A stretch of 64,000 bases of DNA from Azolla caroliniana (taxonomy: Eukaryota > Plantae > Polypodiophyta). Shown here one piece after another: positions 1-63,320 of this stretch. The stretch's first letter is position 1; the number at the start of each line of letters is the position of its first letter. Position numbers and translations under genes: made by a program. Location: contig JBHGNT010000005.1 of the NCBI GenBank assembly GCA_043228905.1, positions 6,510,001-6,574,000 of the forward strand, written 5' to 3'. The notes under the pieces are model-generated. The model was not told the origin of the DNA and searched no databases. It saw only the letters and a list, made by a program, of their open reading frames with translations.

Positions 1-2246
1 TTCTTGTGCGGTGAGTGGGAGACAAGATCTCATGTCTTGTTCCTGGAGAGTGCTTGCATCTCCTCATTCATCGCTTCAACCCATCTGGGGTTCTTCGCGG
101 CTTCGGAAAATGTTTCCGGCTCCCGTACTGTCGCTACCTTCATCATAAAGGCATAATGGTACGCCATATAATCGATGTAGCCGAATCAGCTTAAGGGGTT
201 CTTTTCACGGGTGGATCAGCAGAGTTTCTCGTTTGCGGATACTAAGGGCCCTTTCCTCGCTCCATTTTTCTAGATGTCAAGGCCTTTGAACTCACTATCG
301 AGGGAGTGAGTCGATTCGTTTCCGTCGAAGTGATCGTCTTCATACTTTGACATTTTCACCTTCCCTTTGTCTAGCTTCGGACTCGGCCGAGATGTGTTTT
401 GATTGCTTGGAGGCTCTTGTGGCCCAATAAGCCTTGTTGTAATCGGGCTTTCTTCAAACATGCGCGTGAGCCAATCTCCGGCTTCTATCTCTATTTCGGC
501 GGATTCCGGGTGGAGCGGAATCGGAGTTGAAGTTGTCTCTAGTGCGTACCAAGATGCGGAATCGTCAAAAACGACGTCTCGACTAACTCGAGATTTTTGA
601 GTTGAGGGGTTATAGCACTTGTACCCCTTTTGCTCCAGTGAGTTTCCTACGAGGATACATTTCTCCGACTTTGGGTCGAGCTTTTGTCGCTTCTCGTCGG
701 GGATGCGCACGTACACAATGGAGCCGAATATCCGAACATGTCATAGGTCCGGCCTTCTCGTGCAGAGTAAGTTCGTGCACACTTGATGTCGTACACCAAT
801 TCATGAGGTATACGACCGTGTTAGCCGCTTTTGCCCACCGGTAGGTGCTTTTCGTTCATCATGGCCCGTGCTACTTCAAGGATGTGCCGATTCTTTCGTT
901 CAACTGTACACCGTTTTGCTGAGGTGTGTGTTGGCACGAGAATTCTTGTTGGATTCCTTCTTTTCAGAGATACGCCGTAAATTCGTCGGAGAAGTACTGT
1001 TTTCCTTGATCCGACCGAAGACATTGTACATGTCGGCCTGTGACTTTCTCGACTTCATTTTTAAACTTTTGGAAGTGTCCGAACACTTCGCTCTTTTGCC
1101 ACATGGGGTAGAGCCCGGAGAAGTCGTGGATGAAGGCCATGTAATATCAGCATCCGCCGAATGTAGCCATCTAAGTCGGACCCCATACATCGGAATGAAT
1201 TACGTCAAGTACGCCTTTGCTCATGTTCCGCTCCTTCGGAAATGGGTGCCGATGTTGCTTGCCGAATTGGCAAGCGGTACACACCTGCAATCTCTTTCTC
1301 TGTGAATGTCGGGAGCCTGATGACGACTCCTTTTGATTGCATTGCCTTGAGCTTTTAGAGGTTGATATGGCCAATCCGCTTGTGTCATAACTCTATGTCG
1401 GAATCATCTTTCGTGCCCTTTGCGAACATGGACGATTTCATCTTGTGCGAGTCGAGAATGAACATTCGGCCCTCTTTTTTGATGAAGCAACCACCTTGAT
1501 TAAATCGTACCTGCATCCCTTGCTCAACAATTTGGTTGACGGAGACCAAATTCTTCGTAATGGTTGGTACATGCAAGACATTCTTAATAAAATTTTGGTT
1601 ACCTTCTTTGCTGAATGGGACATTGCCGATGTGTCGAATCGGATGTGTAGTGTCGTCTTCGGTTTCGACATAGCGGGGCCGGTCCGGCTCTCGAAGTTCT
1701 CGGAACCATTCTTGATGAGATGTCATATGGTTTGAGGCACTGGAGTCGACGAACCATACGTCTTCCGGACTAGATGCACTATTCGAAGTAGAAGCTGACA
1801 TAGAATTTTCTCTATGTCTCATCACGAATATTCCTCCATGATCATCATAGTCGGAGTTGGTGGCGTAATTGGTGTGTTGTTGGCTTGTGGAAGCCGACTC
1901 GCGCATCTTCTTACGACACTCTTCTTTGTGGTGATCGATTTTTCTGCAATATCCGCATTCGACCGAGTTTTGTTGACTTGGACCAGAATGGAAGCTTCCC
2001 CTTCTTCCGAAGGTTCCTCGATGGCTTCCGTCTTGATGCCGAAATTGAGAGTTTTTTTCGTAAGTCGGGCCTCGACCACCTCGTCGTTGGCCGAATCGGC
2101 CTCTTCTTGCATGGCTGAGTCCTCTTCCTCCATCCGAGTGTGAGTAGAGCATGTGGCCTTCCGAGGCGTTGCTCCTTGTTCGAACATGGTTTTCTTCGAC
2201 CAACAACATGGATTGAAGATCGAAGAAGGAGGGCGGATTCTCCCGT
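1..2246 (-). pseudogene. Copia A gag C-terminus, protease, GAG-pre-integrase, integrase and start of RT (frameshifted)
   Basis: ORFs 1385-2209 (CGYCRKIDHHKEEC knuckle, WFVDSS), 1171-1374 (CTACQFGKQHR, HSDVWGP), 821-1024 (ERKNRHILEVARAM) and 270-716. Confidence 0.92.
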
Positions 2247-2999
2247 TGTCGTGTTGTTACGCGTGCGCGTGGAGAAAGGCGGGACCACGGGGGTCTTGGA
2301 CTAGGGAGTGACGGAGCGTAGGAAGTCGTACTTCACCGTTTCCGGGGCATCCCAGAAGCACACCGGAAGCAACCGAAGGGAGAGAGAGAAAGAGAGGGAG
2401 CGCACACTTGACACCGACTCACGCACGCACACACACACACACAGGCCGACCCGACTCACGCCCTTATGTACAGGAAACGCAAGAAAGGGGAAGCAACTGA
2501 CACCAACAGAGACACGAATATACACAGACAGACGCAAATGTAAGTATTACAAGGGAAAGAATACAACCCCGGCTTCGAGCCGGACCAAGCTAGGGTAGGT
2601 TACAACAATAGTCTGCAGCCAAGCCGCCATTCGGGGAGCACTCGGGCTCGTCACGTGGAGCGGGGTCTTGCACAGGAGACCGAGCAGAAACAACCCTCAA
2701 CAGTCCACCCACACCGCGAAGAAGAGGAAGAAGAAGTAGAAGAACTAACCCTAAATCTAACGGTATACCCTCTAACACAAAAATGGGCAACCTTTCTACA
2801 AGGGACCATCCCTTCCTTTTATAAAAGAAGGAGAGGGATGCGTTACAATGTGGGATAAATCCTGATTTACATGGGATTCTTCGTCCCGACTTAACACCTA
2901 TTATTCACACAATTACACGAGGGTGAGTGCACATGGTGCACCCCGCCGATGTAGCCAATATTTCCCGGTTTCCGCCTCTGGCCGAAAATCTTCACGACA
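2247..2999 (-). repeat. 3' LTR of element B
   Basis: TGTCGTGTTG...CTTCACGACA, a near-identical direct repeat of 16442-17192. Confidence 0.93.
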
Positions 3000-3809
3000 T
3001 CCGCCCCACCTAACCACACATCCACCGGTACGTGCCAAATCTGGTTGAAGGGTGAGAGATTTCAGCCGGTGAGAAACCGGTCTTCCGTAATCTGCATCCC
3101 GGCTTGCTACCGGTTTGAACCATCGGCTGTGGTTCTCCCTTCGCGCTTACCTCTCCGTAGGCTCATTCGACCCGTCGATGGGTCCTTCGCCGCGATCTCC
3201 ATAGTACGCATACTTCCGCTGGCCCTTATTCGGCCGTATGCACGCTCCGTTCTCTGCTGTATACCCGATGTCCTCCGCTTGGGGAACGCCCGTAGTGGCC
3301 CATTTGGCCTCCGTCTACCATTCGTGTTGTTGCAACAGGTCCTGATTCTCCCGCTTGCAGTCGTCCCCTCGCCCCCACCAGCTTCTCACCCCGGGCTTGT
3401 TGTATCAGTCTTCGCTACTTCGACGGAGCTCCCGAGATCTACGAAGCGAGCGTGAAGGATCCTCCTCTAGACTCGCTTGTCATCCCATGACTCCGACCCT
3501 ATGCAGTCCACTATGCACTTGTCACCTCGTTTCTGGCACCTTCCTTATGCCATCTTCCGCTTCCTTTGTTCGGCACCGCCCATGCCGAACATGGTCCCGT
3601 AGTCACGCTTTGATCCGGCCTGCGATGGCCACTTGCGAGACTCTTATTCCGTCCCAGGTGTGCCTTTCCGGCCCGACACATCTCCTCGTGTTTGCCCCTA
3701 CCGGGTACTTCCGAAACTGTAACCGGCCGGTGAGGGTTTCGCACTTCGTCCGCCCCGTCTTACCGACTCCCGATCCGCTACCCCGTGTTGTTGGGTCCCG
3801 TTCCCTTCC

Positions 3810-5480
3810 ACCACCGTTCTTCTCCCTAGGTCTCACGTTGCCACGTTGGCCAAACTGCCGGGGTCTCCGGATCAGTGTGAGGGTCCCATAGGACCGGTCT
3901 TCGTTTCGTCGCTTGCCGAGATCTAGGTGTCTTTTCTTTGAGTCCCTCCCAGACTCTCCTCGTGTCTTCCACGTAGTCATGTCCCGTTTCCCGCCGCCAC
4001 CAGCCTTCTCTCTCGGTCTCATGTTGCCACGTTGGCCGAACTGCCAGAGTCTCTGGTTAGGTGTGGGGATCCCGTAGGACCGGACTTCCTTACACCCACT
4101 CACCTCGCCAGAAGGTTTGAGATGGTCCGTAGCCACCTTGCCGGCCTCATACCTCCTTGCCGTTCGTCGCCTCCTGTCGTCTGATCACGTTCTCCTGCCG
4201 CCACCGATCTCCCCGATAGGACTCACGCCGGCACTCGGGCCGACCGCCGGATTAGTGTGAGTGTCTTCGTGGGACCCCCCCTTCTGGCTTCGGTTGCCCG
4301 CCTTGCCGCCGTCACCGTCCCTTACTCTAGGTCTCACGCCTCCTCTTGTCGTTGGCTGCCGGAGTCTCTAGAATCGGTGTGTGTAAGGTCAGAACTGCAC
4401 CGCTCTGCCTTCGCCATTCTCTTCTGTTAGTCACGTTCACCTGCCGCCACCATCCTTTCCTATAGGACTCACGCCGGCTCTCGGGCCGACCGCCGGATCG
4501 GTGTGAGGATCTCCGTAGACCGCCCATCCGTAGCCTCTTTTGCCTTCGTCCCCTCACCGCCACCATTCGTCACTCTAGGCCTCGTACTGGCTCTCGGGCC
4601 GACCGCCGGTGTCTGTAGAACCGGTGTGAAGGATCCTCCTCGGGCTTGCCGTATCTCTGACCCTTATCCTGGGTCTTCCTTCTTTCGTAAGTCGAGAGGG
4701 GGGCTCGCTCCACACCCTCTCCCGTGGTACCGATGTACCGTGTTCCTGGCCTCTTCGTAGGCCTGCTCTCTTCCTCCCTCCCGGAATGGTTTTTTGGAAG
4801 TCCGTTCCGCCCGGTTCTCGTCCGGGTCCGTCCGATCTCTCCTATAGGACTCACGCTGGCACTCGGGCCAACAGCCGGATCGGTGTAAGTATCTCCGTAG
4901 GACCGGCCTTCATTCTCCTCTTCATCCCCTGTACTTCTCCCAAACTCGTCATTACTCTCCTTCTCGCGTACCCGCCTCCATCTCCCATCTCCCTAGGTCT
5001 CACGTCGGCGCTCGTTTCCAGCTGCCTAAGTCTCCGGATAAGACGTGGTGCTTCCGTCCCGTAACGATTTGCGGACGCTCGTTCAGGGTACTGCTCCCAA
5101 GTACGTTTGGTGAGAAGCATCTGGTCTGTGATCAACCAAGCCCCGCCTGGGCTTGGTTCTCCAATATCCGTAGTTTCGGTTCTGATGCCGACCTCTCCGG
5201 ACTCGTTCCGAACCCTTGACCACTTCCCTTCCAATTCCCGACCTTCGCCCGATCGGTCTTTCTCCCCAAGTAAAAGAGGGCGGCTCGTCCCGCACCCTCT
5301 TCCGTATTGGCACTTTCATACCGAATCTGGCCCCAATCGAACGATCTACGACCGGATTCTGCTCCATCCGAATCGGAATGCCGATCTTCTTGTGCCACTT
5401 CCGTCCTCGGCCTCCTTGCAGGCCGTTTCCCATCCCTCTTCGCTGTCACCGTGCTAGGACTCCTCGTTGGCGCCTTCCTT
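3810..5480 (-). repeat. Dispersed degenerate repeat array inside element B
   Basis: Core (C/A)TAGG(T/A)CTCACG...GGCC at about 3826, 4012, 4216, 4327, 4462, 4575, 4844, 4993 and 5454, with variable spacers. Confidence 0.75.
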
Positions 5481-6764
5481 CTCTCTAGCCTCATGTCGGC
5501 ACACTGGCATGACCGCCCGAGTCTCCGGAATCCGCGTGGAGGGCTCTTCTCCGCTCTTGACCCTGTCCCCGGTCGGCAATTCTCTGCAAGTCGAGAGGGC
5601 GTTTTGTTCCGCACCCTCTCCCGTGTGTTACCCCGTACGAGATGTACGGAGAGTCAAGTGTGATGAGCGAGGGTCGAATGTTATCATGATGTTGTGTATG
5701 TGTAGGGGGTATAAATGTAGAGGTGAGTCTATACGTATGTGAACACATGCAAACGTTGTTGTGAAGAAAACCGTCCCTTAGCGCAATCGGTGCATAGCGC
5801 GCGTGAACCGGCTCTTCACGCGTGCGCGCCCTTTAATGTATATAATAGAGAATTAGGTACAAAGGTATATCCTAGGTAGTTAGATTCGGTAGGTAGGAAG
5901 TTAATGAGGGAAACGGCTCCCTTCTTGAAGCTATAAAAGAGAGGGAGACGCGGGGGGAAGGGGATTATTGATTATTGAGGGGGGACGAAGTGTTGTCGGA
6001 CCGAAACCGAACGCTTCTCCTCTGTTCGTTCTCCATCGCTCTTCTCTGCAGGTTTTCGGGAGGCTCGCGCTGCTTCGAGGAACGCCCGTGTGCTTCCGGC
6101 AGCACGTCCATCCTATCCCCTTTCGTGCGTAAACGAGCAGGCATCGGCATCTGTTCGCCGACCTGTGCGGTTGTAACCGCTCGCGTGCTCTGTTGTTTAT
6201 TTGTCATTCGTTAATATACAAACGTACAATCCGGAGGTGTACATGGTACAATCCGGAGGCGAACGGGAAGGTAGAGCGCGGACATGGACCGATCGTCAAA
6301 GCACTAGTCCGGGCGTGCGGAGGCCAGGTCGGGAATTGGCCACGACTGTTACCTTATGCCTTGTGGGAGGACCGGACAACGCACAGTTTGGTAACCGGGT
6401 TCATGCCGTCAGAGCTCATGCTCGGACAAAAGCCGATCATGCCGATGGAACGGACGATCTCCTCTTGGGCGACAGTGGACTGGAGAGACGAGATGAGCCA
6501 AGAAGAACTGCTAGCGACGCGTATACGGCAGCTCGAGCGGAGGCCAGAGGACGTGGAACGAGCGACGGAGAGACTTCGGACGGCGAGGATGAGGAACAAA
6601 GCCCGGTTCGACCGGACGCACCGGCTCAGACCAAAGAAAATCGAAGAAGGCGACTGGGTGCTAGTCTACGACAGCAGCCTCGACAACCAGCATCGGGCAA
6701 CACGGAAATTTGCAAAGCGGTGGTTCGGGCCGTACGTGGTAACGAGCGCCAACGATAATGGGAC

Positions 6765-12630: not shown

Positions 12631-13229
12631 TGTCGTGAAGAAAACCGTCCCTTAGCGCAATTGGTGCATAGCGCGCGTGAACCGGAACTTCACGTGTGCG
12701 TGCCCTTTAATGTGGGAAGTTAATGAGGGAAGCGGCTCCCTTCTTGAAGCTATAAAAGAGAGGGAGACGCGGGGAGAAGGGGATTATTGATTATTGAGGG
12801 GGGACGAAGTGCTGTCGGACCGAAACCGAACACTTCTCCTCTGTTCGTTCTCCATCGCTCTTCTCTGCAGGTTTTCGGGAGGCTCGCGCTGCTTCGAGGA
12901 ACGCCCGTGTGCTTCCGGCAGCATGTCCATCCTATCCCCTTTCGTGCGCAGACGAGTAGGCATCGACATCTATTCGCCGACCTGTTCGGTTGTAACCGCT
13001 CGCATGCTCTGCTGTTTATTTGTCATTCGTTAATATACAAACATTCGTGTCTCTCTGTCTTTGTGTCCATTCGTGTCTTCCGCGTTGACGGGCCGTGTCC
13101 CTGTGTTTCTTTGCTCATATGTAACCGGGCGTCTCTCTCTTTCTCTTTCCCCTTCTATCACCCGCTCTTCGGTTCAAGACCCCGGTGGTCCCGCCTCGTT
13201 TCTCCACGCACGCGCGTAGTAACGCGACA
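12631..13229 (+). repeat. 3' LTR of element D
   Basis: Direct repeat of 5757-6223, with TATA-like CTATAAAAG at ~12750. Confidence 0.9.
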
Positions 13230-15036
13230 ACGTGTGTGCATGTGGATGGATACGAGGAGGTGTGATTGAGTGTCCAGTATGAATGCTCAATGGGGCTTAC
13301 ACCCCTATGTATCTACCACCTCTTGTACTATTTAACCCCTTATGGGGAATGAATGAAATATGAATAATCATTTTTCTCTCTCAATCTCTCTCTCTCTTGT
13401 CATCTCTCTCTCTCTCTCCCCCTCAACATTGAATCCCCTTGGGAGGGGGGTGGAGCCATTCTAGGCACCACCCCCCACCCCGCAATGCTTCTCAATGCAC
13501 ATGATCTCTCTTGCCATCAATCCCATACTCTCCATCATCATCATAACCACCATGTCTATCTTTATCATGATTATCATCGTCCTTAACCCTAACCATAAAA
13601 CATACAAGACATTTTGGCAACCACTAAGGCAACCCCCCTTTCGAGACGGAGTCGAAGAATGATACGCGGTGATGCAAGAAATAGTGACTATGTGCAAGAA
13701 ATGGTGGACATGTGTGAGTAACGACGACATAGATACGCGAGTGTGCGGTTGCGGTTAGCGACAAATGACGGTGGCAAAGTGCGAGACGGAGTTGAAGCAT
13801 GATATGTGATGAGGATGTCTGCAAAGAAGTCAATGAATGGACGGAGTGGAAGAATGTACGATAAATGGTGATGACAATGTCCTAGAAAAGTCGTAGAATG
13901 AGACGCAGTGATACGGATGTGCAAGTGTAAGAGAACTAGCAACGTGTGTGTGCAAGAACGTGTGATGCAAGAGACAACCATCAGATATCAATGGTCGACA
14001 ACCGTATGACGACTGAACAGAGTGGCCATGGGACGGACGGCCAACTGCAGACTGGCCGAATAGCGCCGACAAGGCCGGCAACAGAGATGTCTGGAGATGG
14101 ACCGGACAGACATGGCCTGATGGGCCAGACTGCGGAAAGAGCAACCGGAAGGACCGAAAACAGCCAGACGTGGACAACAGACAGTGCTGGAGACAGAGAC
14201 AACAACCTATGGACAAGTCGGATGGACTTGGAGAGAAACGACGACAGAGACAGAGGAAAGTGATGGAGACGCCAAACGGCGACCAAACAAACGACTGGAC
14301 AAGGCCAAGAAGAACGACGATGGAGACAAAGATAGTGATGAAGATGGCCAACAACAACGAGACAGGATGAACGGAGAGACGGATGACAAATGGCGTTGGA
14401 CAATGGAAACGTGGGTGGCAACAGAAGGAGATGAAGCAATAGCAATGGCGACAACAAAAGAGAAGAAGCAGGAGAGTGAAGGAAAAAGAATGAGGAAGAA
14501 GAAAGCATGCGAGAAGCAAAAGCAGAGGAAAAGATGAAGAAGATGAAGAAGAAGAAGAAGAGGAAGTGGAAGAAATAGAAAACAGAGAAACGCAAAAGAC
14601 AAGAAGACAAAAAGAAGACAAACACAAAAAAAACGACCTAAAAACGAAACTCAAATGAGAGGGAAAAAGAGAAGAGAGGGGCATTGTCATTCGTTTAAAT
14701 ATTTTGAGGCTAAAAATACCTAAATTTAAAAACTTATCCACCTAAAGAAATGGACGTGATCGACCACGACAACCCACACAAAAATTAAAGGAAGAACACA
14801 CATACATACAACATAATTTTGACGACCCGAATGATTTTACGAAGTTCGTAAGTCGACAGAACGAGAATGTTCGTGTCGCGGACGATTTGTTGACCGAGAA
14901 AGATGTTCGAGTCAAGCACTCTGATCGAGGGAGTCGATCAATGAAAGGACCGATGGAAGTTCCGGTCAAAGAAATATCATCATCAAGGCATGTGGGATCG
15001 ACGTGCAAGGCACTTTCCCACGGGCGTGCCATATTG

Positions 15037-16441: not shown

Positions 16442-17192
16442 TGTCGCGTTGTTACGCGCGCGCGTGGTGAAAGGCGGGACCACGGGGCTCTTGGACTAGG
16501 GAGTGACGGAGCGTAGGAAGTCGTACTTCACCGTTTCTGGGGCATCCCAGAAGCACACCGGAAGCAACCGAAGGGAGAGAGAGAAAGAGAGGGAGTGCGC
16601 GCTTGACACCGACTCACGCACGCACACACACACATAGGCCGACCCGACTCATGCCCTTATGTACAGGAAACACAGGAAAGGGGATGCACCTGACACCAAC
16701 AGAGACACGAATATACACAGACAGGCGCAAATGTAAGTATTACAAGGGAAAGAATACAACCCCGGGTTTGAGCCGGACCAAGCTAGGGTAGGTTACAACA
16801 ACAGTCTGCAGCCAAGCCGCCGTTCGGGGAGCTCTCGGGCTTGTCACGCGGAGCGGGGTCTTGCACAGGAGACCAAGCAACAATAGCCCTCAACAGTCCA
16901 CCCACACCGCGAAGAAGAGGAAGAAGAAGTAGAAGAACTAACCCTAAATCTAACGGTATACCCTCTAACACAAAAATGGGCAACCTATTTACAAGGGACC
17001 ATCCCTTCCTTTAATAAAACAAGGAGAGGGATGCGTTACAATGTGGGATAAATCCTGATTTACATGGGATTCTTCGTCCCGACTTAACTCCTATTATTCA
17101 CACAATTACACGAGGGTGAGTGCACATGGTGCACCCCGCCGATGTAGCCAATATTTCCCGGTTTCCGCCTCTAGCCGAAAATCTTCATGACA
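16442..17192 (-). repeat. 5' LTR of element B
   Basis: TGTCGCGTTG...CTTCATGACA; the PBS lies 4 nt inside. Confidence 0.93.
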
Positions 17193-17702
17193 TCGTGCTA
17201 ATATCACGATCCACATCGCGCCGAACCGTGGTGCAAGGCCACTAAGGCATATTTGTACCATCTCATCATCGTCCACATTGATGCTTATCGAGTCGAGCGA
17301 GTTGCAAAGCTCCTTGATCTTCAAGGTGTAGCTCGTGATGGACATATCCCTTTGTTGGATGTTGTTCAACTCTTGGTGGAGTTGAAACTTTCTCGCAGTT
17401 GTGTTGGCGACGAAAATATTTTGTACATTTTCCTACACTTCCTTTGGCGTCTTGGCTTCTCAAATGTACCCAAGCATGTGTCCGTGTACAGAAGTCGCCA
17501 AGCAAGACATCACTCGGCTTGCCACTTGCTCCCATGTGGCATAATCGGCGTTTTTCAGGCCGGGTCGGTTTTCTTGTGCTCCTTTGATGTAACCCCAATA
17601 GCCTTGGCTGACAAGGTATTGGTGCATCTTGTACTCCCAAGATGCAAAGTTGTTTCGATCTAGCTTCTCGCTAGGGAGAGCGCTCCCCATTTGAGTATTC
17701 AT
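17193..17702 (-). pseudogene. Copia A gag N-terminus
   Basis: MNTQMGSALPSEKLDRNNFASWEYKMHQYL..., near-identical to the gag start of F (23240-23509) and similar to E. Confidence 0.9.
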
Positions 17703-24063: not shown

Positions 24064-24866
24064 ACCATCTTCCGTTCGGCTTCCATCACGATCTTTGCCA
24101 TCATCTCCTCGAAGTTGAAGTCTTCTTCCATCTCCATGCTCCCTTGTCGCCCTTCACGTCGGGTTCACCAAATATGTCGCGTTGTTACGCGCGTGCATGT
24201 AGAAGGGGCGGGACCACAGGGGGTCTCGGACTAGGGAGTAGAGGAGAAAGAATAAGATATGATATGGAAACTTAGCTCAAGAGGAGAAGAGGAAAGAATA
24301 TGACCATGACATAGAAGGAGAGATCAGCGGAGGCAAGATACTCAACAAGTTATATTAAAACAAACGAATGATTACACCAAACGACTATGAGAAAACCCTA
24401 ACCGAGGATGAAAAAGGAAACCCTAACCCTAAAACGGTAAGAACTCTAGACAAAGTGGTATACCTCTCATACGCAAAATAGGCAACCCCTCAAAAGGGAC
24501 CCCTCACTCCCTTTTATAGTGGTAAGGGGTGAGGCACAATACAATAGGAGTGGTCAATTCCCCTTTCATTCAAAGGAGAATATTTTCCCCGATCTCGAGA
24601 TTGATGGGCCTTAACTTTCTCTCCTCTAGCCGTCCTACTCAATGACCATCACTCTTACACTCAGTCTCTATGTACCTCCCTCTAGTCCACAAAGTGCACA
24701 TCACATTTACACTTAACAACTTTGTAGAGCACCTTAACTCCTTACACTTTACATTTGCTTATTTGTCCCTATGTTACAATTTCCCTAAGTTCATGTGCAA
24801 TGTTGCACATCTCCGTTTTCTCTATCCCGCTCGGTTTTCTCACCATGGATGAAAAACGTCACGACA
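24064..24866 (-). mobile_element. 5' end of B-family gypsy I: LTR 24175-24866, tRNA-Trp PBS 24153-24170, first codons of gag
   Basis: TGTCGCGTTG...GTCACGACA termini, a PBS identical to that of B, and an LTR end similar to the reverse complement of 62652-63177. Confidence 0.85.
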
Positions 24867-24945
24867 TCTTCTTCCCATCTACTCCCTAGTCCGAGGCCCC
24901 CATGGTCCCGCCTTATTCTACACGCACACGCGGAAATACACGACA
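24867..24945 (+). repeat. Terminal ~80 bp of an oppositely oriented B-family LTR (J)
   Basis: CTACTCCCTAGTCCGAGGCCCCCATGGTCCCGCC...CACGACA matches the 3' end of the M and D LTRs. Confidence 0.75.
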
Positions 24946-36000: not shown

Positions 36001-38045
36001 TTGGTTAAAGACAACACACATCAAGCAGAACTGGAGGAGGAATATGATTACGTTCCGGCGAGGAAAAGCGAAGGTACGGGTACCAACACAACCAAGGAAG
36101 GGCACCGGCAAGGATCTGACACCGTTATATGCGGAGTGCGTCAATATGATGGAAGGATTAGCAGACGAAGAAGAAGATCAGTACTTGCAGGAGAACCCGA
36201 AGATTGTGCCCCTATTCGAAATTGACGTCGCCGAAGCGGTATCACCCTACTTACTGCAACCGGACAGAACCGGATAAAGAAGCAATCCGGGAGTTACGGC
36301 AAGCACATGAGGCGTTGGAAAGAGAAATGTCCGTATCACAGCGCGTAAAAGCGTCTCAATTAGAAGAGGTAAATCTAGGAACGGCGGAGGAGGCAAAAGC
36401 GGTGCACGTTGCCAAAGAAATGAAGGCAGAGAACAAAACGGCGATAATTACACTCCTCAACGAGTTTCGCAACGTATTTGCCTGGTCTTACGAAGATATG
36501 AGAGGGCTGGATCCTGAGTTGTATCAGCATCAGATATATCTGAGCAAAGACGCCAAGCCGGTAGCACAGCGTCGGTACCAGATGAACCCAAACTACGCCG
36601 CCAAAGTCAAGGAGGAAATCGACAAATTGTTGAGGGTTGGCTTCATCCGTCCCGTAAAGAAATCTACATGGTTGAGCCCGATCGTAGTCGTACCGAAGAA
36701 GAACGGCAAAATTAGAGTGTGTGTCGACTACCGGAAGCTCAATGCGGCAACGGTAACGGATGGATTTTTGGATGCCGTCGCCGGCCATGAAGTCTACAGT
36801 TTCTTAGACGGATTCAGCGGGTATAATCAGATCTGGATGCACCTTGATGATCAAGAGAAAACGACTTTCGTCACCGAATGGGGAGTGTTTGTTGCCGTGG
36901 TGATGATGTTCGGACTGAAAACGGCACCAAGAACATTCCAACGGATCATCATGGAGATCTTTGGCGAATACATACCGGCTTTTATGCAGGTGTTCCTTGA
37001 CGACTTCACCGTCTATAGCCGAGAAGAAGATCATTTGCAGCATCTCAAACTATGTCTAGAGAAGTGTAGGCCGTACCGGCTAAGCCTAAATCCGGCGAAG
37101 TGTGTATTTGGAGTATAAGGAAGGCATTGCCGTAGATCCGGACAAAGTGAAAGCAATCCTGGAAGCACCGGCAATGGCAACGGCAAAGGCATTGAGCCGT
37201 TTCTTAGGACAAATCCGTTGGCATAGCCATATGCTCCGATATTTGGCAGACCTGGCTACACCTCTACATGCGGCAGTACACCAAACACCGTTCGAATGGA
37301 CAGACATCAAAGACAAGGCGTACCGGGCACTAAAGGTATTATTTTCACAAGCACCGGTAGTGCAGCCTCCGGATTGGAGTAAAGAGTTTCATGTGTTCGT
37401 GGACGCCTCCGACATCGCAATCGGCAGTGCGCTCATGCAGCTTACCGAGCCAAGGTGGTACCCGCCAGTGTACTATGCCAGCCGGAAGCTATCCCAAGCG
37501 GAACGAAATTATTCTACCATGGAAAGGGAAGCTTTAGGAATGATCTACGGTGTAACAAAATTCAGGCATTATTTATTGGGAAGAAAGTTCTCCTTCCATG
37601 TAGATCATTCGGCACTCCTCTACCTAGTATCCAAAGCGTCACTTACCGGTAAGTTGGCCCGGTGGACTTTGCTGTTGCAGGAGTTTGAATTCAAGATATT
37701 CCACCGACCCGGCATACAGCATGCGGTAGCAGATTATCTAAGCCGGTTAGATTCCGGGGAGACAGGTGACGGAGTACCAGACAACTTTCCGGATGCGGAG
37801 CTTTTTCGAGTCACCACGGAAACAACAACATATGAAACGGTGGCACAAGAAGATAAGTGGCTAACTAATATGCACCAGTTTTTGAGTACTAGATTACCTC
37901 GGGAGGAGATGAACCGGGACGAAAGAAAACGTCTAGCGGTACAAAGCCGGCATTTCTGTTTATTACAGGACACGTTATACCACAAAGGGTGGACGGTATA
38001 TGGCGACGAGCGGTGCACAATGACGAGAAGAAGGTAATACTACGG

Positions 38046-38175
38046 TGTCGCGTTGTTACGCGCGTGCGTGGAGAAAGGCGGGACCACGGGGGTCTTGGAC
38101 GAGAGAGTGATGGAGCGTAGGGAGTTGTGCTTCATTGTTTCTAGGGCATCCTAGAAACACACCGGAAGCAACCGA

Positions 38176-38215
<40 letters not shown>

Positions 38216-38881
38216 TGTGTGTGTGTGTGTGTGTGTGCTTAACACCGACTCACGCACACGCACACGCACACGCACACGCACACGCACACGCACACGCACA
38301 CGCACACGCACACGCAGCTCAACCCGATTCACGCCTTATGTGCAGAAAACGCAGGAGAGGGTAAGCACCCGACGCCAACAACGATGCGAATATACACAGA
38401 CAAACATAAACGTATATGTATGTATATATATATATGAAGAATACATTCCCAGCTTCGAGCCGGACTGAGGTAGGTTACAGTAGTTGTCTGCTGCCAAGCC
38501 GCCGTCGGGGAGCTCTCAGCTCGTCGCGCCGAGCGGGGTCTTGCACAAGAGGCCTAACCAAAGCAAACCCTAAGCAAAACACGAAGGAGAGAGAAGAAGA
38601 ACCCAACTCTAAACCTAACGGTATACCCTCTAATGCAAAATGGGCAACCCTTTTACAAAGGGCGTTCCCTTCCTTTTATAGAACAAGGAAAGGGAGGCAT
38701 TACAATGCGGGACAAATCCCGACTTACATGGGATCGTCTGTCCCGACTTGACTACTCTTCGGCGCCATAAAGGCGCCCTCGACATTCACACTAAATGTAC
38801 ACGGGTGCGTACACACGCTGCACCCCGCCGATGTAGCCAATGTTTCCCGGTTTCCGCCTTTGGCCGAAATTCTTCACGACA
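38046..38881 (-). mobile_element. Solo LTR L of the B family
   Basis: TGTCGCGTTG...CTTCACGACA with perfect 4-bp TSD ACGG; removing it restores the K integrase sequence ILREAHCG. Confidence 0.95.
38178..38316. repeat. (GA)n(GT)n and (CACACG)n microsatellites inside solo LTR L
   Basis: Directly visible; much shorter in the B LTRs. Confidence 0.93.
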
Positions 38882-40568
38882 ACGGGAAGCACATTGCGGA
38901 GTCGCCGGAGGCCATTATGCCGGAGATGCGACGGCAAGGAAAGAATGGCAAAGTGGCCTATGGTGGCCGATGACATTGAAAGATGCAGTCCGGTACGCGA
39001 AAGAGTGTGATCTATGCCAGCAATTGGCCAGCCAACGGAGCAAGCTCGGATGCCACACCAGCCGGTCCTACCACTAGAACCATTCCAGAAATGGGGGCTA
39101 GATTTTGTCGGGCCATTTAAACCACCGGCAATGAGAACCGGTAACCGGTACGTGATCGTCGCGACGGATTACTGCACTAAGTGGGTAGAAGCGAAAGCCC
39201 TACGAGACAACACCGCGGCGTCAACGGCAAAATTCTTATACGAATCCATTTGGTGCCGGTACGGATGCCCCATAGAGCTGATAAGTGACCAAGGAGGGCA
39301 CTTTCTTGGACAAGTGGTAGAAAGTTTGAAGACGTTCTATGCGGTAGTACATAAACGAAGCACACCGTACTATCCACAAGCAAACGGGTTAGCTGAGTCG
39401 ACGAACAAAACGCTCTAGAATATCCTCCGGAAAATCGTCAACAAAAACCGGACGTATTGGGATACGAAGCTGCATGGTGCGCTCTGGGCCTACCAAACAG
39501 CGTACAAAACAAGCATCCGAACAACACAGTTCCGATTAGCATTCGGATTAGAGGCAGTCATGCCAGTCGAGTTCCAGGTACCAAGCTTACGGATTCAGAT
39601 TCGGGAACGACTGAACGAAAAGGAATCGGAGGCAATTCGGTTAAAGGCTCTATGTGAACTAGAAGAACACCGACCGGCGAGCATCATGCACTTGGAATTG
39701 GAACAATGGCGACGGAAGGCGTTTGTAGATCGGCACCGGAAGGGAAACGAAAAGTTGTTCGAAATCGGCAAGCCGGTACTCGTGTTCCAGACCCGGATGG
39801 GCAAAATGCCAGGTAAACTACGGTTTAGATGGACCGGACCATACTGGATCACACGCGAGTTCAATGGGTCCTACCAATTAGGAACACTTGCTGGCGAAGT
39901 GCAGGGTAAATGGGTCAACGGATTTAGACTAAAGCCATACAAAGGACCTATGCCAAAGAACCCATTTGAACGAAGGACCGCCACCGAATCAGACGCCGGC
40001 AGGCCAACCACGACGGCAACCCGTGAGGAAAACGGCTACCACCAAGCCGGTAAGGGGGAGCATGAGCCGGCAACCGAGGAAAGCATAATGACGGCAAACC
40101 GTCAAGAGGCCGGTATGGTGCATGTTTCGGGTAAGGGTCCGACAGGACCGGAGAAAAATTAAGCACACAATTTACTTTACAAAAAAAAAAAAATCAAATA
40201 AAGGAGCGAATCAAATAAATCATGGAAAGGAGTGGTGGAAACGGCCATGCAAACGAGTAAAGAGGCACGTCGAAAAGGTACGAGGGGCTATGAATAGGAC
40301 ATTTAACCACCGCCACATGGCACGCAATGCTATTATAGTACACGACCTGCACATGCGGAGGCTCGAAAAAGGCGCCAAGATGCAGAGAGAAAAACCCCCA
40401 CGCATTGAGACCTTGTCCTATCGCGAAGCAAGGAGAACGGACGCAGACAGACGCGTGAAGATCAATCGCAGAGAGCTCGCACACAGAGAACCCCCTCCCT
40501 CAGAACTTTCTCTCTCACACTCTCCCCACCACCAAACATCGCCAACGCTCTCCGACCTCGACGCAGAG

Positions 40569-46652: not shown

Positions 46653-46721
46653 TGGAATCTCCCGACTTGCTATTGAATATATATATACATATATATATAG
46701 TGAGAATTATAGTTAACCCAT

Positions 46722-56100: not shown

Positions 56101-57440
56101 TTAGGGAAGAGAACTAGGTTGAATTGGGCTGACTTTGATTTAAAAGGTGAAGCTAAGTCGGTTTGGAATTGGTTGGCCTTTTCTTCTTCAGTGATGGAAA
56201 ACAAAACCCATGTTTGTAGTACAGTTTGGGGAGGGAACATTATGTATGCAGAAATGGATAGAGTCTTTACAATATCTTCCTTTTAGCCTTCTCAAACTAG
56301 TCTGTTTTGGTATGGTATGTTTTCAGCCCTACATGTCTTATTGGGGGTTAGGGGTTATAAAAACGCTCATGAATGCCTTTACTTCGATGTTTTGCCTTCT
56401 GGACGACTTCCTTCTCTATTTGTGGAAGATGAAATTGTAACTCAAGGGAATAGGTTCCCTATTCGTATATTGTGGAAGAAAGATAAAAAATGGATATTGA
56501 ACCCACATCCAAATGATGTAAACGATCTCTCTGATTTATGAATCTATGAGAATAAGCCCATTGATCGCCTTTTGTGGGATCCTGGTGAGTGGAAATGGCA
56601 AATCAGATCAGGGTAAGGAATTCTAGGTAAGCAACTCCCATTTTTTGAATATTCAGTAAAAATGGGTAGAGAAATGCTAAGGAGAGGTGTGATTGTTACA
56701 CCAGCAACTTGTAAATTCTAGAGATTTGGTAATGTAACAGATTCTTGGATGAATGCTTATTAGAAATGGTTATGGGCCATGCAAATTCCTAAAAAGGTTG
56801 TGTTATTTAGATGGTTGTTGACACATTATGGCATTCTTGTGAAGTCATGGATGCGGGGACACTGCCAAGATTTAAAATGTGATAGTTGTAGTTCTCCCAT
56901 TGAATCGGTTTACCATGTTTTATGGATATGTCCTATTGCTAGAGCCGTTTGGAAAAGAATGTTGAGAATGTTATATTCTATTTATGGTAGACAGATGTAC
57001 ACATGGGGTTTTGTGAGATCGGGAAGATTAGCTAAAGAAATTCAGAACTATGAAAAGGAGTTTGATGATTTTCTTCTCCTCTTCGATGGAAGACATGTAT
57101 TGGAGGTCTCTGATACTACACAGTCTGTTGTTTGGAAGAGGATATGGTCTAGTCTACGATATCTTCTCTAGTAGTTTGGGTATTGTGGAAGACTCTAGAT
57201 GTAAATGTGTATTTCAGAAAATTAAGCAAAATGCAGTTGATTTAGTGAAAGAGGTATGGTTAATGCTCTTACACACTTTAAGAGGTCAATATGATGCAAT
57301 AGTTGGTGAGCCTGAGGTTGTGATTCGTAAACAACGACAGTTTCGCGAAATTTGGCAAAACGCTGAGGTCTTCACCTCTTTTGGAGAAAGAATAAAGTGG
57401 AGATATGCTCCACCAATATGACTTTTTCCACCCCCCGTCT
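53097..57440 (+). pseudogene. LINE ORF2 (AP endonuclease, RT, zf-RVT) with many stops
   Basis: SWNVQGL, FLQEHH, GDFNM, SDHSP, WRPITILN, LDFEKAYDKVDW, RQGCPLAP, FANDT, CDSCSSPIESVYHVLWICP. Confidence 0.95.
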
Positions 57441-60400
57441 TGGAACAACCCTACATGAGGGCTTTTGATACTTGACATGCTGGTTGATGTGGATATGAGG
57501 GTTGTAATATAATGTATGAATTCGTTGTAGCCTTTTGGCATCTTTCCATTAATACCAAGGTGAGTTCCTTCTTTTTTTAAAAAGAAAAAGAGAGAGGCTA
57601 ACATACAGTTAAGGTTAACAAACATATATATAAGATTGATATATATTATTTCCCAAATTTGATTGAGATTTAGAGGTTATTAGGATGAGGAGACAAGGTT
57701 CTAACAAGCTAAATTGACATGGAATAATTTATTATCTAAATAACAAGTGATGTACAATCTAGTAACCAATTATTTAGGTATTTCACAATAACGCTAATAG
57801 CTAGTGATGCTACATGAACATGTACAAGTGTAAGAATTAATTTAGTATACCAAAATACCTAAAAGAGAATTGATAGTTATTAGCTATCAAAAGCAGAAGA
57901 AGAATAACTAATTAATAATTTACAAATGAATGCTTGCGCTGATTATAAATGCATGAGGTATATCAAGAAGGTGGACATGATGGTCCTTCCAAAATGTTTC
58001 CTTGCACATATCCTTCTTTTTCAATGATAGTCTAGAAGATGATGATTATTTCCTTCATCATCGCATCACCGAGCATCATTGGCTTACATCTTGTGGTTGA
58101 CTATATTAGACTACTTCCTTCATCAGTTGAACTTGAGTGATCCATTGCATTGTAGACATTTTTTTCTACTAACACCTACCCTCTTACACAACATACTAAT
58201 ATTAATATGTTTAATATCTGTACTTAATATCATCATTGGATTGGATATTTTTAGGATAAGATCATCTTCAAACTTACTCATGATCAATAGTGTCTTCCTT
58301 AGATTACTAACTAGCACATGTGTTTCATTTCCATTTAGATCATCAATATTAGATATCATTATATATTTTATTGATTGATCACTCCATATTCAATTAAGTA
58401 TTACCATCTCCTCTTAATAACCATGACTTTTCCCTCTATCATTTTAGTTTTGTATCTTCCGCATCTACTAAATTGTTAACACCCACAACACAACCATTGC
58501 TTTCATTGTATTTAATTGCCATGTCTTGCTTAGCCTTTAATATTTCATTGTGTTTTGGTTTTTATTGGCCTAATATTTTCTTATAGCTTGTTATAATTTA
58601 TTGATAGCCATGTTCCTTTCTTTAAGATTTATGAGAGCCATTGATAAACTATTATGATCACTTTCCATTGATAAAACTTAATAGATAGTAAGCAATAATC
58701 AAACACAAAAAGTGAGAAAATAATGAATATTATCTTAGTGATTAAGAGATGACCACATCTAAGGAGCAAAGGATATTTAGGCACCAAAGATGGGGATGCA
58801 CAACCATTACCTAATGCCACGGACAAGGGATTGCATGAAATGAAGAACAAGAGCAAATGACATGAACTATGAATTTTGTAACTAGTATAGTTCACCTTGA
58901 TTGTGTTAAAGGGGGGCACACATATTTATAAAAGGTTGGAGAGGCATGCATACAAAGAAACCTCTAGAGATGTGCATGGTCTTGTGGATCCTAGAAATAA
59001 AGTTTGGATAATGAACATAGAAACCCAAAAAATAAATTACATATAGCTTTTTTCATTGCTAAATCTCGTGCTTTTACCCAAGTGCATATGCTCACTATTA
59101 GACATGGAATGCAACCATTTGTAACCCAATGTTGTGGTGAGAATAGATTAATTCTTGATTGCATAATGGTTGAAACATGTTATGTCGAGGTTGAAACTTT
59201 ATATGCAATGTACATTAGGAACAACACTAGGAAGCACACCTCCAATAAAAAACTTGTCACATGTCTAGGATGAAAGCTAACCTACACTTTACCTTTAATG
59301 GATATAGATGCTAGTGTCATTGCCTCTTGTACGAGCATTAGGTACATCTATGTGTTTGACCTCTATAAGCGTACAAAGATAGACTCTCATGTTGTGATGT
59401 GAATAGTATCCGGTGTGTAGGGTTTTAATGCTTATGTGTATGATAACCACCCACACTAGTTCAAGGTCGTGAAGAATCTTGAGTATTTCTTGTATGAAGA
59501 ATATTGAAATCGTGTACATTCTCAACAAGGATTTGTGTGTAATAAAGCTAAGTGTTCAATTAGTATACTTCCCGATCATGGATAGTCTTCAATGAAAAGT
59601 CATAGCACAAGGCATAACCTAAGAAAATAATCATCCAAAGAAATCTTGCTCATTTCTAGGTCCAAACCTCTAGTTGTAATTTCCTTACGTTTGACCTACC
59701 CAAGGAAGCTATAACATCTCATATAGGAGATTGCAGTACTCTCATAAAGTGTTTAAGCTAAACACTTTGTTACACCCTAGTTCACAAGTTTCAGGTCGCC
59801 ATGGACCTTGAGTCGTTCGTTAAGAACCCACATCATCTAGGCTAGTATTAACGGTATCATTGACATATGTGCATGCAAGGAAGCCTCAACAACATGGCAA
59901 GTGAAGAATGTGAAAACTACAATGCAAGTGTGGAATCAAGACAACTCCTAAATTTGACTCTTGCAAAACCTCTAAACTCTCCCAAAGTCAAAACCCCATG
60001 CAAGTTAAACTTGCAAAAGTGCCTACATGATCTAGCAAAAAACTTTAGTTCAAGGGCTATATGTGCAAATGAAATAGGACCAAATTTATGTCGTATAACA
60101 TGTCTCTCATTAAACCATGTACTAAATGCAACTTGGCTCATTAGGGAAGCTTAATTTTGGTTTTCGTGTTCGTTGCGATTGCGACTGAATGCTCTTTGCA
60201 AAAACACCACTAGCTTTTCATTGTCAACTCACATCCATGCCACTTCTTGTGTTGTAACAATGTAAACACCATTGACTTGGTGATGGTGCCCATAACACAC
60301 TTCATGAGATCTTCAACACACCTAGAGGTAGTGTCCCTCAAATGGTTAGTCCCAACCATAACTCGTTCCCATGTGCTCATTATGTGGCGTGCCCGAAGGT

Positions 60401-61692
60401 AGTAAATGGGGAAAATGGAAAAAACGCCACAACCACAAAGATGTAAATATATAAATATACGTTATGGCAAAGCTCGAAGCTATGGCCGATGTATTACTCA
60501 TACCAAGGAATCTAGAATTAGTAGAACCATAGAACTTCCTAGAAACTATAATTAGTAGAACCCTAGAACTTCCTAGAAATCTCTAGAACTTTTTGGAACA
60601 TTCTAAAGAACTATAGAATGCTCCACGACTCACTGTATAATGAGCTCCCCTCACTCTTGTTGAACCATTTCGTTTCAACACAAGTCTCAAGTCCTCCAAG
60701 TAAGCTCTCCCTTGTATAGATCTTTATATTAATACATATTTTCGTTCATTGTTACTCTCTCTCCCTCTACTATTATCTCACCTATTTCCTTCCATCTTCA
60801 TTCTCTCTTGCTTAATCTATTCACTACTATCTCATCTATCCCTTTCATCATCACTCTTTATCTCGCTCTTTCTACTTCTATTTTGTCTCAAATTTGATAG
60901 TTTGAATAGGAATTCCCCTTTGCCTAGCCACTTCTTAAGCCCTATGTAGCTATGACCGTTGTTAGCTAACAAGATTATTTGATTATTATCTCTGAATTGG
61001 AGAGCCTTAAAACCAAGTTTGTGGCGCTTGAGATGGAATATCAACGATTGCTTGAGGATCTCCAAAAGGTGACTGTGGAAAAACAACACAACATGATGAG
61101 TTCACACGAGGAGTATAACAATTAGAGTCAGTGTTGGTGGCTTTGCAACAACACTCGACAAGAGATCAAGGGGTTATTAAAGAACCCACGATTAGCCTAC
61201 CTACGAAAATTGAAGGCACCGCGATCCTCGTCTTGTCAAGCTCGGCAAGATGGTATGCCGCATTATTGTTGGCGCTTGTCACCATGTACGGCCCGAACCA
61301 CCTTCTCGCAAACTTTCGGGTCGACTAGTGTTGGTTATCTAGGCTGCTGCCGTAGACCAGCACCCAATTGCCCTTCTCGATCTTCTTCAGCCAGAGTCGG
61401 TGTGTCCGGTCAAACCAAGCCTTGTTCTTCTTCCATGCTTCTTCTATCGTCTCGCGCTCATTCAACGTCCACCGGTCGTCGCTTGAGCTGTCGGATCCGT
61501 GCTGCCAACAACCCTTCTCGGCTCATCTCCTCCGACCAATCCACCGGCTCCTAGCTCATCCGTCACATGCTCGTACTAATGCTTTTACGATTGGCCTGTG
61601 CCCACGCTCGATTTTCCCATTGGCTTCAGGATTGTACGCTGTGGTGAGCGAAAGCTTGACCCTGAGTTGGTCGAACAACTCCTCCCCTTCTA

Positions 61693-63320
61693 GCGCGTCC
61701 AGCTCCCCTCGGTCAGCCACGATCTTACCCACACACCCATACTAGCAAATCACATCTTCAATCAGGAACCTTCATATGACTGCGGTGGTCTTGTTTGCTA
61801 AGGCCCAACCCTCCACCTGGTTCATCACATCTTCCACCTAGCACCCGGAGGACATACGAGCCTTTGCGAGGAATGCATGTGGCGAGAGATGGAGCGGTGA
61901 GGTGCTGGTATCGACGGATGATCGGCGAACATGGAAGGCTATGTCTTGAGAACCGGAGGAGGTGCGTGGAGAGCAACGGGCTACGCGCCGGGAAGAGGAA
62001 GCGCGGCGTCCCGGAAGGCATGCGAGGCCAAGCGGGCCAAGAGGATGAGAGTTGGGATGAAGCGGTGACGGGAGTTGCGAAGGACACTGACATGGTGGTC
62101 GGGATGACGGTACGCTCTACGGCGAGAGGGCACGTCGAGCGAGGGAGAAGCAAGGAGCGCGTAACGGGGTCACGTAAGGACCAAAGCACGAGCGCGCATT
62201 TGATGGACGACAACGACGCACGGAAAGTGCCTATGGAAGCCGAGCGCAGAACGAAGGGAGTCAGTACGAGGTGTTCGGGGCGAGGAGAAGGTCGAGCCGG
62301 AGGTGGAACACACGTGATACGCGAGGAGCGGCACCCGGCGAGCAATCGAAGTAATCGGGGGTCTAACCGAAGGACATGCGTGGTGAGCGAAGGAAGGGAG
62401 ACCGGATCGGCAACGGTGTTTGGGATGGCCGGTTGAAGAAGAAGGTGCGTGCACCGGACATGGTGGATCGGATGGAGCCGGCGGGTCGGGGCCAGTAAGG
62501 AGCCGGCAAGACGGATCGGTGCTGGCAAGGGACCAGCAAGACGGTTGGGTGCCGGTAAGGCGAAAGACCCGGTTGATCACCATCGCCGAAATCTCTCACC
62601 CTTTTCCTTTCTTGGCACATACCGGTGGATGTGCGGTTTGGTGGGGGTGGATGTCGTGAAGATTTCCGGCTATAGTGTGAAACCGGGGTGGAATGGGCAA
62701 ATCGGTGGAGTGAAACATGTGCACGTGTATACTAGGAAATGGTGTGTAGAAAGAAGAGGGGAATTTTATCCCACATTGTAAGGTTCCCCCTTCCTTGGGC
62801 TATAAAATGAAGGGAGGGGTCACTTATGAGGGGTTGCCTATTTTGAGGGAGAGAGGCATACCACTTAGGTCGAGGGTTTCCTATTCGGTTTTAGGGTTTC
62901 GGTTAGGGTTTTCTTCTTGGGTTTTCCTTTAAGGTTTTCTTATAGTCGTTTGGTGCGGCCATGGCGGCCACCATTGTTGTAATCATTCACTTGTTTTTAA
63001 TATAGCTTGTTGTGGATCTTGCTTCCACCTATTTTGGTCTACGCTTATGTGCTACTCTTCATCTTCTCATCCGGTGTTAAGCTTCCATTTCTCATATCTT
63101 ATTCTTTCTCCTCTACTCCCTAGTCCAAGACCCCCGTGGTCCCGCCCTTCTACACGCACGCGCGTAACAATGCGACAACGCGTCTAGCTCCCCTCGGTCA
63201 GCCACGATCTTACCCACACACCCATACTAGCAAATCACATCTTCAATCAGGAACCTTCATACGACTGCGGTGGTCTTGTTTGCTAAGGCCCAACCCTCCA
63301 CCTGGTTCATTAGATCTTCC
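61693..63320 (+). repeat. ~143-bp direct duplication (61693-61835 and 63178-63320) flanking M
   Basis: CGCGTC(C/T)AGCTCCCCTCGG...CCACCTGGTTCAT is present on both sides. Confidence 0.92.
61836..63177 (+). mobile_element. 3' part of B-family element M: internal region, PPT and 3' LTR (62652-63177)
   Basis: TGTCGTGAAG...AATGCGACA termini and the same pre-PPT motif as B and D. Confidence 0.87.

What the first reader, a model, noticed from the sequence alone, without database searches (positions are those of the whole stretch)
2243..63181. tRNA-Trp-primed gypsy family with 4-bp target duplications centred on CpG
Seen: all three two-ended insertions of the TGTCG...CGACA family have a 4-bp TSD of form NCGN. 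These are B (CCGT/TCGT, 2243-2246 and 17193-17196), D (ACGT, 5753-5756 and 13230-13233) and solo LTR L (ACGG, 38042-38045 and 38882-38885). The single end of M abuts ACGC, and J abuts ACAC, a possible decayed ACGC. One end (I, TCTT) does not fit. Two copies carry an 18-nt tRNA-Trp PBS set 4 nt from the LTR. Known: most plant LTR elements make 5-bp TSDs with weak sequence preference, as C and E do here, while CG-directed 4-bp integration is known from Drosophila ZAM/Tirant. Inference: the integrase may prefer CpG or methyl-CpG, steering insertions into other TEs without a chromodomain.
Basis: partly seen in the sequence, partly recalled or inferred. Interest (0 to 1): 0.8.

Follow-up and report, generated by a model that had tools for sequence, protein, structure and literature searches.

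The report
Phygy-like retrotransposon inserting at CpG
This plant jumping gene really does insert almost only at CG-centred four-base sites, but that habit, its primer type and its layout match a lineage already described from moss (Phygy), to which it likely belongs, so the finding is largely known.

Summary
All three two-ended insertions (B, D, L) have 4-bp NCGN duplications, and paralogous empty sites in the window confirm B and D. Among 93 distinct target-side junctions of related copies in public metagenome contigs, 83 have CG at positions 2-3. The other 10 have CA or TG, the deamination products of CG. Background CG is 4.3%. The site refines to VCGB, mostly ACGT.

It is not new. Neumann et al. 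2019 (PMC6317226) describe Phygy, a non-chromovirus Ty3/gypsy lineage of Physcomitrella: 186 elements, 100% 4-bp NCGN TSD, 81% tRNA-Trp PBS, no extra domain. This family matches on TSD, PBS (isotype from recall), no chromodomain and no aRH. No Phygy reference sequence was reachable, so membership by tree is untested. Named relatives occur in liverworts and a fern.

Methyl-CpG reading is neither shown nor needed. LTR-element DNA here holds about 5-10 times more CpG per base than other DNA, so plain CG recognition predicts nesting.

The parts
2243..2246 (.). Left TSD of element B (CCGT)
   Evidence: Sequence; single CCGT at the paralogous empty site 23000-23003
2247..2999 (-). 3' LTR of element B
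   Evidence: 95% identical to 16442-17192
3000..3015 (-). Polypurine tract of B
   Evidence: Purine-rich run directly before the 3' LTR on the minus strand; the same motif precedes the D and M 3' LTRs
3016..5623 (-). Repeat-rich internal tail of B; no pol found
   Evidence: No tblastn hit of family pol here; patchy match to the gag-only element L045
15547..16404 (-). Degenerate gag of B
   Evidence: Translation; 69% DNA match to the start of L045; weak match to Riccia gag P0156
16420..16437 (-). 18-nt primer-binding site of B, 4 nt (TCTT) from the 5' LTR; tRNA-Trp by recall
   Evidence: 18 of 20 PBS-side loci have the same 4-nt spacer
16442..17192 (-). 5' LTR of element B
17193..17196 (.). Right TSD of B (TCGT, from CCGT by C>T)
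5753..5756 (.). Left TSD of element D (ACGT)
   Evidence: empty paralogous site ACGT at 15164-15167
5757..6223 (+). Truncated 5' LTR of D
   Evidence: 93-96% identical to parts of 12631-13042
6241..6764 (+). Integrase C-terminal part of D, interrupted by a copia (6765-12386) and resuming at 12387-12515
   Evidence: 78-81% identical to P0001-P0004; ties this LTR family to that pol
12631..13229 (+). 3' LTR of D, preceded by its polypurine tract
13230..13233 (.). Right TSD of D (ACGT)
24153..24170 (-). PBS of element I, 4 nt (TATT) from its 5' LTR
24175..24866 (-). 5' LTR of element I; outer end abuts TCTT inside J's remnant
24867..24945 (+). 3'-end remnant of LTR J, abutting ACAC (24946-24949)
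38042..38885 (-). Solo LTR L (38046-38881) with ACGG on both sides, inside the integrase gene of an unrelated gypsy element
61214..61835 (-). Integrase core and C-terminus of a family copy, target of M
61836..63177 (+). Remnant of element M: 3' region, PPT and 3' LTR (62652-63177)
63178..63181 (.). Target bases beside M (ACGC; GCGC in the duplicated copy at 61693-61696)
63178..64000 (-). RNase H end and integrase N-terminal half of the family copy hit by M; broken by stops
   Evidence: 60-62% identical to P0001-P0004; groups with them at 100/100 support

Best explanation
This is a plant Ty3/gypsy LTR retrotransposon family whose copies sit at CG-centred four-base sites; it is likely a member of the described Phygy lineage, and its integrase likely picks the short palindromic sequence VCGB (mostly ACGT) by reading the DNA itself. 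Shown: the LTR, PBS and PPT anatomy, the 4-bp duplication, the CG centre, the order gag-protease-RT-RNase H-integrase without chromodomain or aRH, and autonomous as well as gag-only copies. Inferred: minus-strand priming by host tRNA-Trp; a staggered cut 4 bp apart around the CG; later deamination of methylated CG giving the CA/TG junctions; and nesting in other retrotransposons as a by-product of their much higher CpG density, with no methyl reader required.
For: TSDs and empty sites in the window. 83 of 93 distinct 3'-side junctions have CG, and the other 10 are CA or TG; TA occurs 0 times; background is 4.3%. 9 of 12 distinct 5'-side junctions have CG. T at position 1 is seen once and A at position 4 twice in 93, against about a third each in background NCGN (p about 1e-15 to 1e-14). 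LTR ends exactly 4 bases apart occur in L035 and L065 (ACGT) and in a run X3 joint (ACGG). 19 of 20 junctions in CpG-poor flanks still have CG. CpG columns in window repeat pairs show transitions at 23 of 224 against 28 of 926 for other C/G columns, enough to explain about 10% decayed junctions. CpG per 100 nt is 5.6-10.3 in LTR-element DNA and 1.0-1.3 elsewhere. No chromodomain or aRH in Pfam scans. Phygy is published as 4 bp NCGN 100%, tRNA-Trp 81%, no extra domain. ZAM integrase binds its CGCGCG target in vitro, a precedent for direct read-out.
Against: No Phygy reference sequence could be compared, and no Physcomitrella protein appears among the named hits listed (searches list only the best 120 of 278 and of 1260). 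REXdb called Phygy species-specific. The metagenome LTRs are only about 69-95% identical to window LTRs, so the 93 junctions come from related subfamilies or a related species. 0 of 5 apparent solo LTRs in those contigs have identical 4-mers on both sides. Element I abuts TCTT, and one 5'-side junction is CCTT. The tRNA isotype rests on recall; no matching tRNA gene was found.
Confidence: 0.75

Rival explanations
1. The integrase, or a partner, recognises methylated CG, which actively steers insertions into silenced repeats without a chromodomain.
For: All window insertions are in other LTR elements. At least 40 of 93 flanks match window sequence, mostly TEs. TE CpGs here show the deamination mark of methylation.
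Against: Density alone predicts nesting. 20 of 87 flanks are CpG-poor (2 or fewer per 100 nt). No methyl-binding domain was found in pol, and the integrase tail after the GPY motif is short in most homologues (105 of 112 under 100 residues). The CG-centred ZAM precedent comes from Drosophila, which lacks CpG methylation (recalled).
Confidence: 0.12
2. The family is a separate non-seed-plant lineage, possibly related to fungal Ylt1-type elements, that shares the NCGN target and the Trp primer with Phygy without belonging to it.
For: Named relatives are from Riccia, Calypogeia and Adiantum, not Physcomitrella. Gag carries a DUF4100-like region. One Atlas cluster that is commonest in Basidiomycota shares 217 of 256 features (a lead only). 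Pol is only about 21-29% identical to the other gypsy element in the window. The likeness of its RT motifs to Ylt1 is recalled, not tested.
Against: It would need three rare traits (4-bp TSD, NCGN, Trp PBS) to recur in the same plant groups. Neumann et al. found NCGN in Phygy alone among 30 lineages. Phygy has since been annotated in a liverwort.
Confidence: 0.12
3. The bias reflects only target bending: 4-bp integrases favour a flexible pyrimidine-purine step at the centre (recalled for foamy virus), and CG is such a step.
For: All 93 central dinucleotides are pyrimidine-purine steps.
Against: TA is 0 of 93, and CA plus TG are 10 of 93, below their 13% background and matching the expected decay of CG. 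The outer bases are also constrained.
Confidence: 0.04
4. The pattern is chance in CpG-rich TE DNA, or the LTR ends were mis-drawn so that the CG belongs to the LTR.
For: The window is CpG-rich (4.8 per 100 nt).
Against: p about 1e-101. Other flank offsets show 0-10 CG in 94 rows. PBS-side ends of the same LTR are followed by TATT or TCTT, not CG, and empty paralogous sites hold the 4-mer once.
Confidence: 0.01

Closest known systems
Phygy lineage (non-chromovirus Ty3/gypsy, Physcomitrella patens; Neumann et al. 2019, PMC6317226)
   Same: 4-bp TSD, NCGN preference, tRNA-Trp PBS, no chromodomain, no aRH.
   Different: Described from P. patens only. Here the named relatives are in liverworts and a fern, the site resolves to VCGB, and gag-only non-autonomous copies exist. 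Sequence identity to Phygy was not measurable.
TatI (Selaginella; same paper)
   Same: 4-bp TSD (100% of 4 elements) and tRNA-Trp PBS (75%).
   Different: TatI has an aRH domain between protease and RT. None was found in L013 or in full-length Riccia relatives. No NCGN preference is reported for TatI.
Selgy (Selaginella; same paper)
   Same: Non-chromovirus, 4-bp TSD (96%), no extra domain.
   Different: tRNA-Ala PBS (90%), about 5 kb, no NCGN preference reported.
ZAM subgroup errantiviruses of Drosophila (PMC2527525, PMC5408687)
   Same: Sequence-specific integration at a CG-containing palindrome; integrase binds the target directly.
   Different: Insect env-bearing elements with a CGCGCg consensus. 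Here the commonest site is ACGT, and the exact 4-mer CGCG cannot occur under the NCGN rule.
Ylt1-like fungal Ty3/gypsy elements (PMC2864245)
   Same: Non-chromodomain elements; the RT motif likeness is recalled, and the Atlas gives a Basidiomycota lead.
   Different: Not reported from plants in the passages I read. Relationship untested.

Membership tests
Ty3/gypsy LTR retrotransposon | LTRs (TG...CA), PBS, PPT and pol order protease-RT-RNase H-integrase | tested here: met
   Window anatomy; domain order in P0001, P0003 and Riccia full-length proteins; best solved relative is Ty3 Gag-Pol
Phygy | 4-bp TSD | tested here: met
   3 of 3 two-ended window insertions, two with empty sites; 4-base LTR-LTR junctions. 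The 5 apparent solo LTRs in short-read contigs did not give matching pairs.
Phygy | NCGN insertion preference | tested here: met
   83 of 93 CG and 10 of 93 CA/TG
Phygy | tRNA-Trp PBS | tested here: inconclusive
   An 18-nt PBS is present and conserved in 20 of 20 PBS-side loci. It is 16 of 18 identical to a recalled Trp PBS, and no host tRNA gene was available to confirm the isotype.
Phygy | No chromodomain, no aRH | tested here: met
   Pfam scans of 5 pol proteins and window pieces, and of 3 full-length Riccia proteins and the L013 gag-protease-pol junction. One sub-threshold RVT_3 match in P0156 overlaps the ordinary RNase H.
Phygy | RT-RH-INT cluster in the Phygy clade (the primary definition) | not testable with these tools
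   The REXdb FASTA and Additional file 1 are too large to read, and my tree has no Phygy reference
Phygy | Element size about 7.7-10 kb, internal region mostly coding | tested here: inconclusive
   No intact autonomous copy is in hand; window copies are deleted or nested. L013 (about 2 kb from PBS to the pol start) plus a pol ORF of about 3.4 kb and two LTRs of 0.5-0.85 kb gives about 7 kb before any 3' region.
TatI | aRH domain between protease and RT | tested here: not met
Selgy | tRNA-Ala PBS | tested here: inconclusive
   The PBS resembles a recalled Trp site, not Ala; the isotype is not confirmed against a gene
Chromovirus | Chromodomain at the integrase C-terminus | tested here: not met

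The most novel reading that the evidence does not exclude
The integrase of this lineage, which spans liverworts and ferns and likely mosses, is a methyl-CpG-reading enzyme. It inserts essentially only at VCGB, prefers the methylated form, and so targets silenced DNA with no chromodomain or host tether. The conserved D-R-G-E/D motif after the second catalytic aspartate, where foamy virus integrase has D-Q-G-A, would be the reading surface.
Probability: 0.12. Interest if true: 0.75.

Novelty: new member of a known kind. Interest (0 to 1): 0.22.

Why it matters
The headline trait is already in print for Phygy, so this is mainly a confirmation in another genome. It adds a sharper motif (VCGB) and evidence that CG was close to obligatory at insertion. 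It also shows that the lineage, or a look-alike, reaches liverworts and a fern. An integrase with so strict a short target is a clean system for asking how gypsy integrases read target DNA and whether cytosine methylation matters. My four searches found no such test for Phygy, but the library lacks most subscription journals.

Tried and rejected
No host genome is held, so there was no genome-wide count. Laying Logan contigs of four runs on the LTR gave no usable flank consensus at the LTR ends; it yielded one joint with ACGG between two LTR ends. The search for related loci in viral contigs found no relative. Searches for a tRNA gene matching the PBS found nothing: 0 hits in viral and prokaryote contigs, and 0 tRNAs in 31 viral loci that matched a shorter pattern. 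The PBS string was in 0 papers. The Vendrell-Mir 2020 supplements gave no usable Physcomitrella reference, because cells are cut at 400 characters and 0 of 4 motifs were found. The tree's outgroup row (the other window gypsy) was a very long, half-empty branch and says nothing about placement. The unnamed representative search added no taxonomy. GingerRoot is a DNA transposon with a 6-bp TSD and no strict motif, so it is not relevant. I first read I's TCTT as the LTR-PBS spacer and rejected that: it is at the outer end. TatI and chromovirus were rejected on domains.
Full report
Observation. The window is a stack of nested plant LTR retrotransposons, with copia elements, an L1 and two kinds of gypsy element. 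Every coordinate in the finding checks. B is a minus-strand element with LTRs at 2247-2999 and 16442-17192 (95% identical) and flanks CCGT/TCGT. A paralogous copia copy has a single CCGT at 23000-23003. D is a plus-strand element at 5757-13229 with ACGT on both sides, and the paralogous host LTR has a single ACGT at 15164-15167. L is a solo LTR at 38046-38881 with ACGG on both sides. M abuts ACGC, J abuts ACAC, and I abuts TCTT at the broken edge of J. The 18-nt PBS lies 4 nt from the 5' LTR in B and I. Its assignment to tRNA-Trp is from recall; no tRNA gene was found to confirm it.

Beyond the window. No host genome is held. Of these, 20 are PBS-side ends (19 found by motif, plus L077 moved by eye), 7 are duplicates, and 93 are distinct target-side junctions. 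At positions 2-3 outside the LTR, 83 of 93 have CG, 5 have CA, 5 have TG and none has anything else. Background CG in the same flanks is 394 of 9230 (4.3%; computed with L077 still included), giving p about 1e-101. Other offsets show 0-10 CG in 94 rows. The outer bases are symmetric: position 1 is A61 C21 G10 T1 and position 4 is T54 G20 C17 A2, so the site is VCGB, and ACGT is the commonest (34 of 93). On the 5' side the script listed 15 non-PPT junctions. I dropped L034 (a PPT), L039 (not this LTR) and one of two L065 rows (the same four bases). Of the 12 left, 9 have CG, 1 TG, 1 CA and 1 CT. CG at positions 2-3 from both ends fits only a 4-bp duplication. LTR ends exactly 4 bases apart occur in L035, L065 and a run X3 joint.

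Results against. None of the 5 apparent solo LTRs in these short-read contigs has the same 4-mer on both sides. Chimeric assembly across the repeat, or recombination between copies, is the likely cause, but I did not test it. The locus LTRs are about 69-95% identical to window LTRs (69 loci with a hit), so they are related subfamilies or a related species and not proven to be the window's host. Laying four runs on the LTR gave no flank consensus.

The proteins. D's integrase piece is 78-81% identical to P0001-P0004, and the RH-INT piece at 63178-64000 is 60-62% identical and groups with them at 100/100 support. L013 runs from LTR end and PBS through gag (with a DUF4100-like region) and protease into the start of that pol, with no aRH. 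Five pol proteins and three full-length Riccia proteins show RT, RNase H and integrase, with no chromodomain and no aRH. The named relatives listed are Riccia sorocarpa, R. fluitans, Calypogeia fissa and Adiantum nelumboides (searches list only the best 120 hits). The host is therefore likely a non-seed plant; I did not identify it. B shows no pol and matches L045, a gag-only element with one 1426-codon ORF from PBS to PPT.

Mechanism. Shown: near-obligate CG at the centre of a 4-bp duplication. Inferred: the integrase makes a staggered cut around a palindromic VCGB that it reads directly. Bending alone does not explain it, because TA never occurs and CA plus TG (10 of 93) are below their 13% background. 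Those 10 fit later decay. In six window repeat pairs, CpG columns show transitions at 23 of 224 against 28 of 926 for other C/G columns (a column counted as CpG if either copy had CG, which inflates the first rate somewhat). So TE CpGs here are likely methylated, but that does not show they were methylated when chosen. Nesting needs no methyl reader: LTR-element DNA has 5.6-10.3 CpG per 100 nt against 1.0-1.3 in the L1 and the unannotated stretches. At least 40 of 93 flanks match window sequence, and 13 were flagged as the family's own DNA, two of them doubtful. Yet 20 of 87 long flanks are CpG-poor, and 19 of those 20 still have CG at the site. One speculative lead: after the second catalytic aspartate the family has R-G-E or R-G-D in 146 of 150 motif-bearing homologues, aligned to Q-G-A of foamy virus integrase. 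That alanine's role as a target-DNA contact is recalled, not checked.

Comparison with what is known. Neumann et al. 2019 (PMC6317226; I read the abstract, passages, sections 8, 9, 13 and 15, and the text of Additional files 2, 5 and 6; files 1 and 3 were too large) state that Phygy elements are the one exception among plant lineages in having an insertion preference, for NCGN. They tabulate 186 Phygy elements with 100% 4-bp NCGN TSD, 81% tRNA-Trp PBS, mean 8628 bp and no extra domain. PMC6911290 (passages) reports 4-bp TSDs as commonest in Phygy and Phygy nesting in Tcn1 elements. PMC12885004 (passages) annotates Phygy in a liverwort. TatI shares the 4-bp TSD and Trp PBS but has aRH, which is absent here. 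PMC2527525 and PMC5408687 (passages) give the Drosophila ZAM precedent. PMC2864245, PMC6839031, PMC13469084 and PMC9033089 (passages) and PMC7466625 (passages, a supplement search and part of one table) added nothing decisive. It works like Phygy on every trait I could test. Membership by phylogeny, the primary definition, could not be tested; the unread REXdb files bear directly on it.

Verdict. The novelty class is new member of a known kind, with interest 0.22. What remains open is whether methylation matters (about 0.12) and whether this is a separate lineage from Phygy (about 0.12). Searches found no test of methyl dependence for Phygy. The scan's earlier notes held nothing on this family: none of the 7 notes returned for this genome concerns it, and the word and sequence look-ups returned 0.

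Noticed in passing
L045 (whole internal region); window 3016-5623 and 15547-16404: A high-coverage gag-only non-autonomous subfamily has one open 1426-codon ORF (gag plus a long acidic, repeat-rich tail) from PBS to PPT and no pol. B is a decayed relative; I's short surviving gag start also matches it.
   Followed up: partly
L035, L065, run X3 joint: Two LTR ends separated by exactly one NCGN 4-mer, which suggests that a second copy inserted into the TSD of the first.
   Followed up: partly
window 5624-15546, especially 15022-15034: The LTR element nested in B (the host of D) has a tRNA-end-like GGGCGTGCCA plus 3 bases, not a purine tract, before its right LTR. It has no matching TSD.
   Followed up: no
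window 61694-61835 and 63179-63320: A 142-bp direct duplication (97%) of integrase sequence flanks the remnant of M, which suggests deletion with repair from an empty copy, not a plain insertion.
   Followed up: no
window 18591-24061: A copia with 97%-identical LTRs has unrelated flanks (copia RT on the left, element I gag on the right) and no matching TSD; it is likely a recombinant of two copies.
   Followed up: partly
window 33039-42200: A second, unrelated gypsy element (gag, RT, RNase H, integrase, then a long 3' ORF at 40092-41612) with a different PBS at about 33509. It is only about 21-29% identical to this family's pol and hosts solo LTR L.
   Followed up: no
window, LTR elements versus 25000-27400, 43500-61200: A sharp CpG contrast: observed/expected is about 0.9-1.25 in LTR elements and 0.32-0.42 in the L1 and unannotated DNA.
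   Followed up: partly
P0001-P0371, integrase core: A conserved D-R-G-E/D motif after the second catalytic aspartate (146 of 150 motif-bearing proteins), where foamy virus integrase has D-Q-G-A; a candidate target-reading surface.
   Followed up: partly
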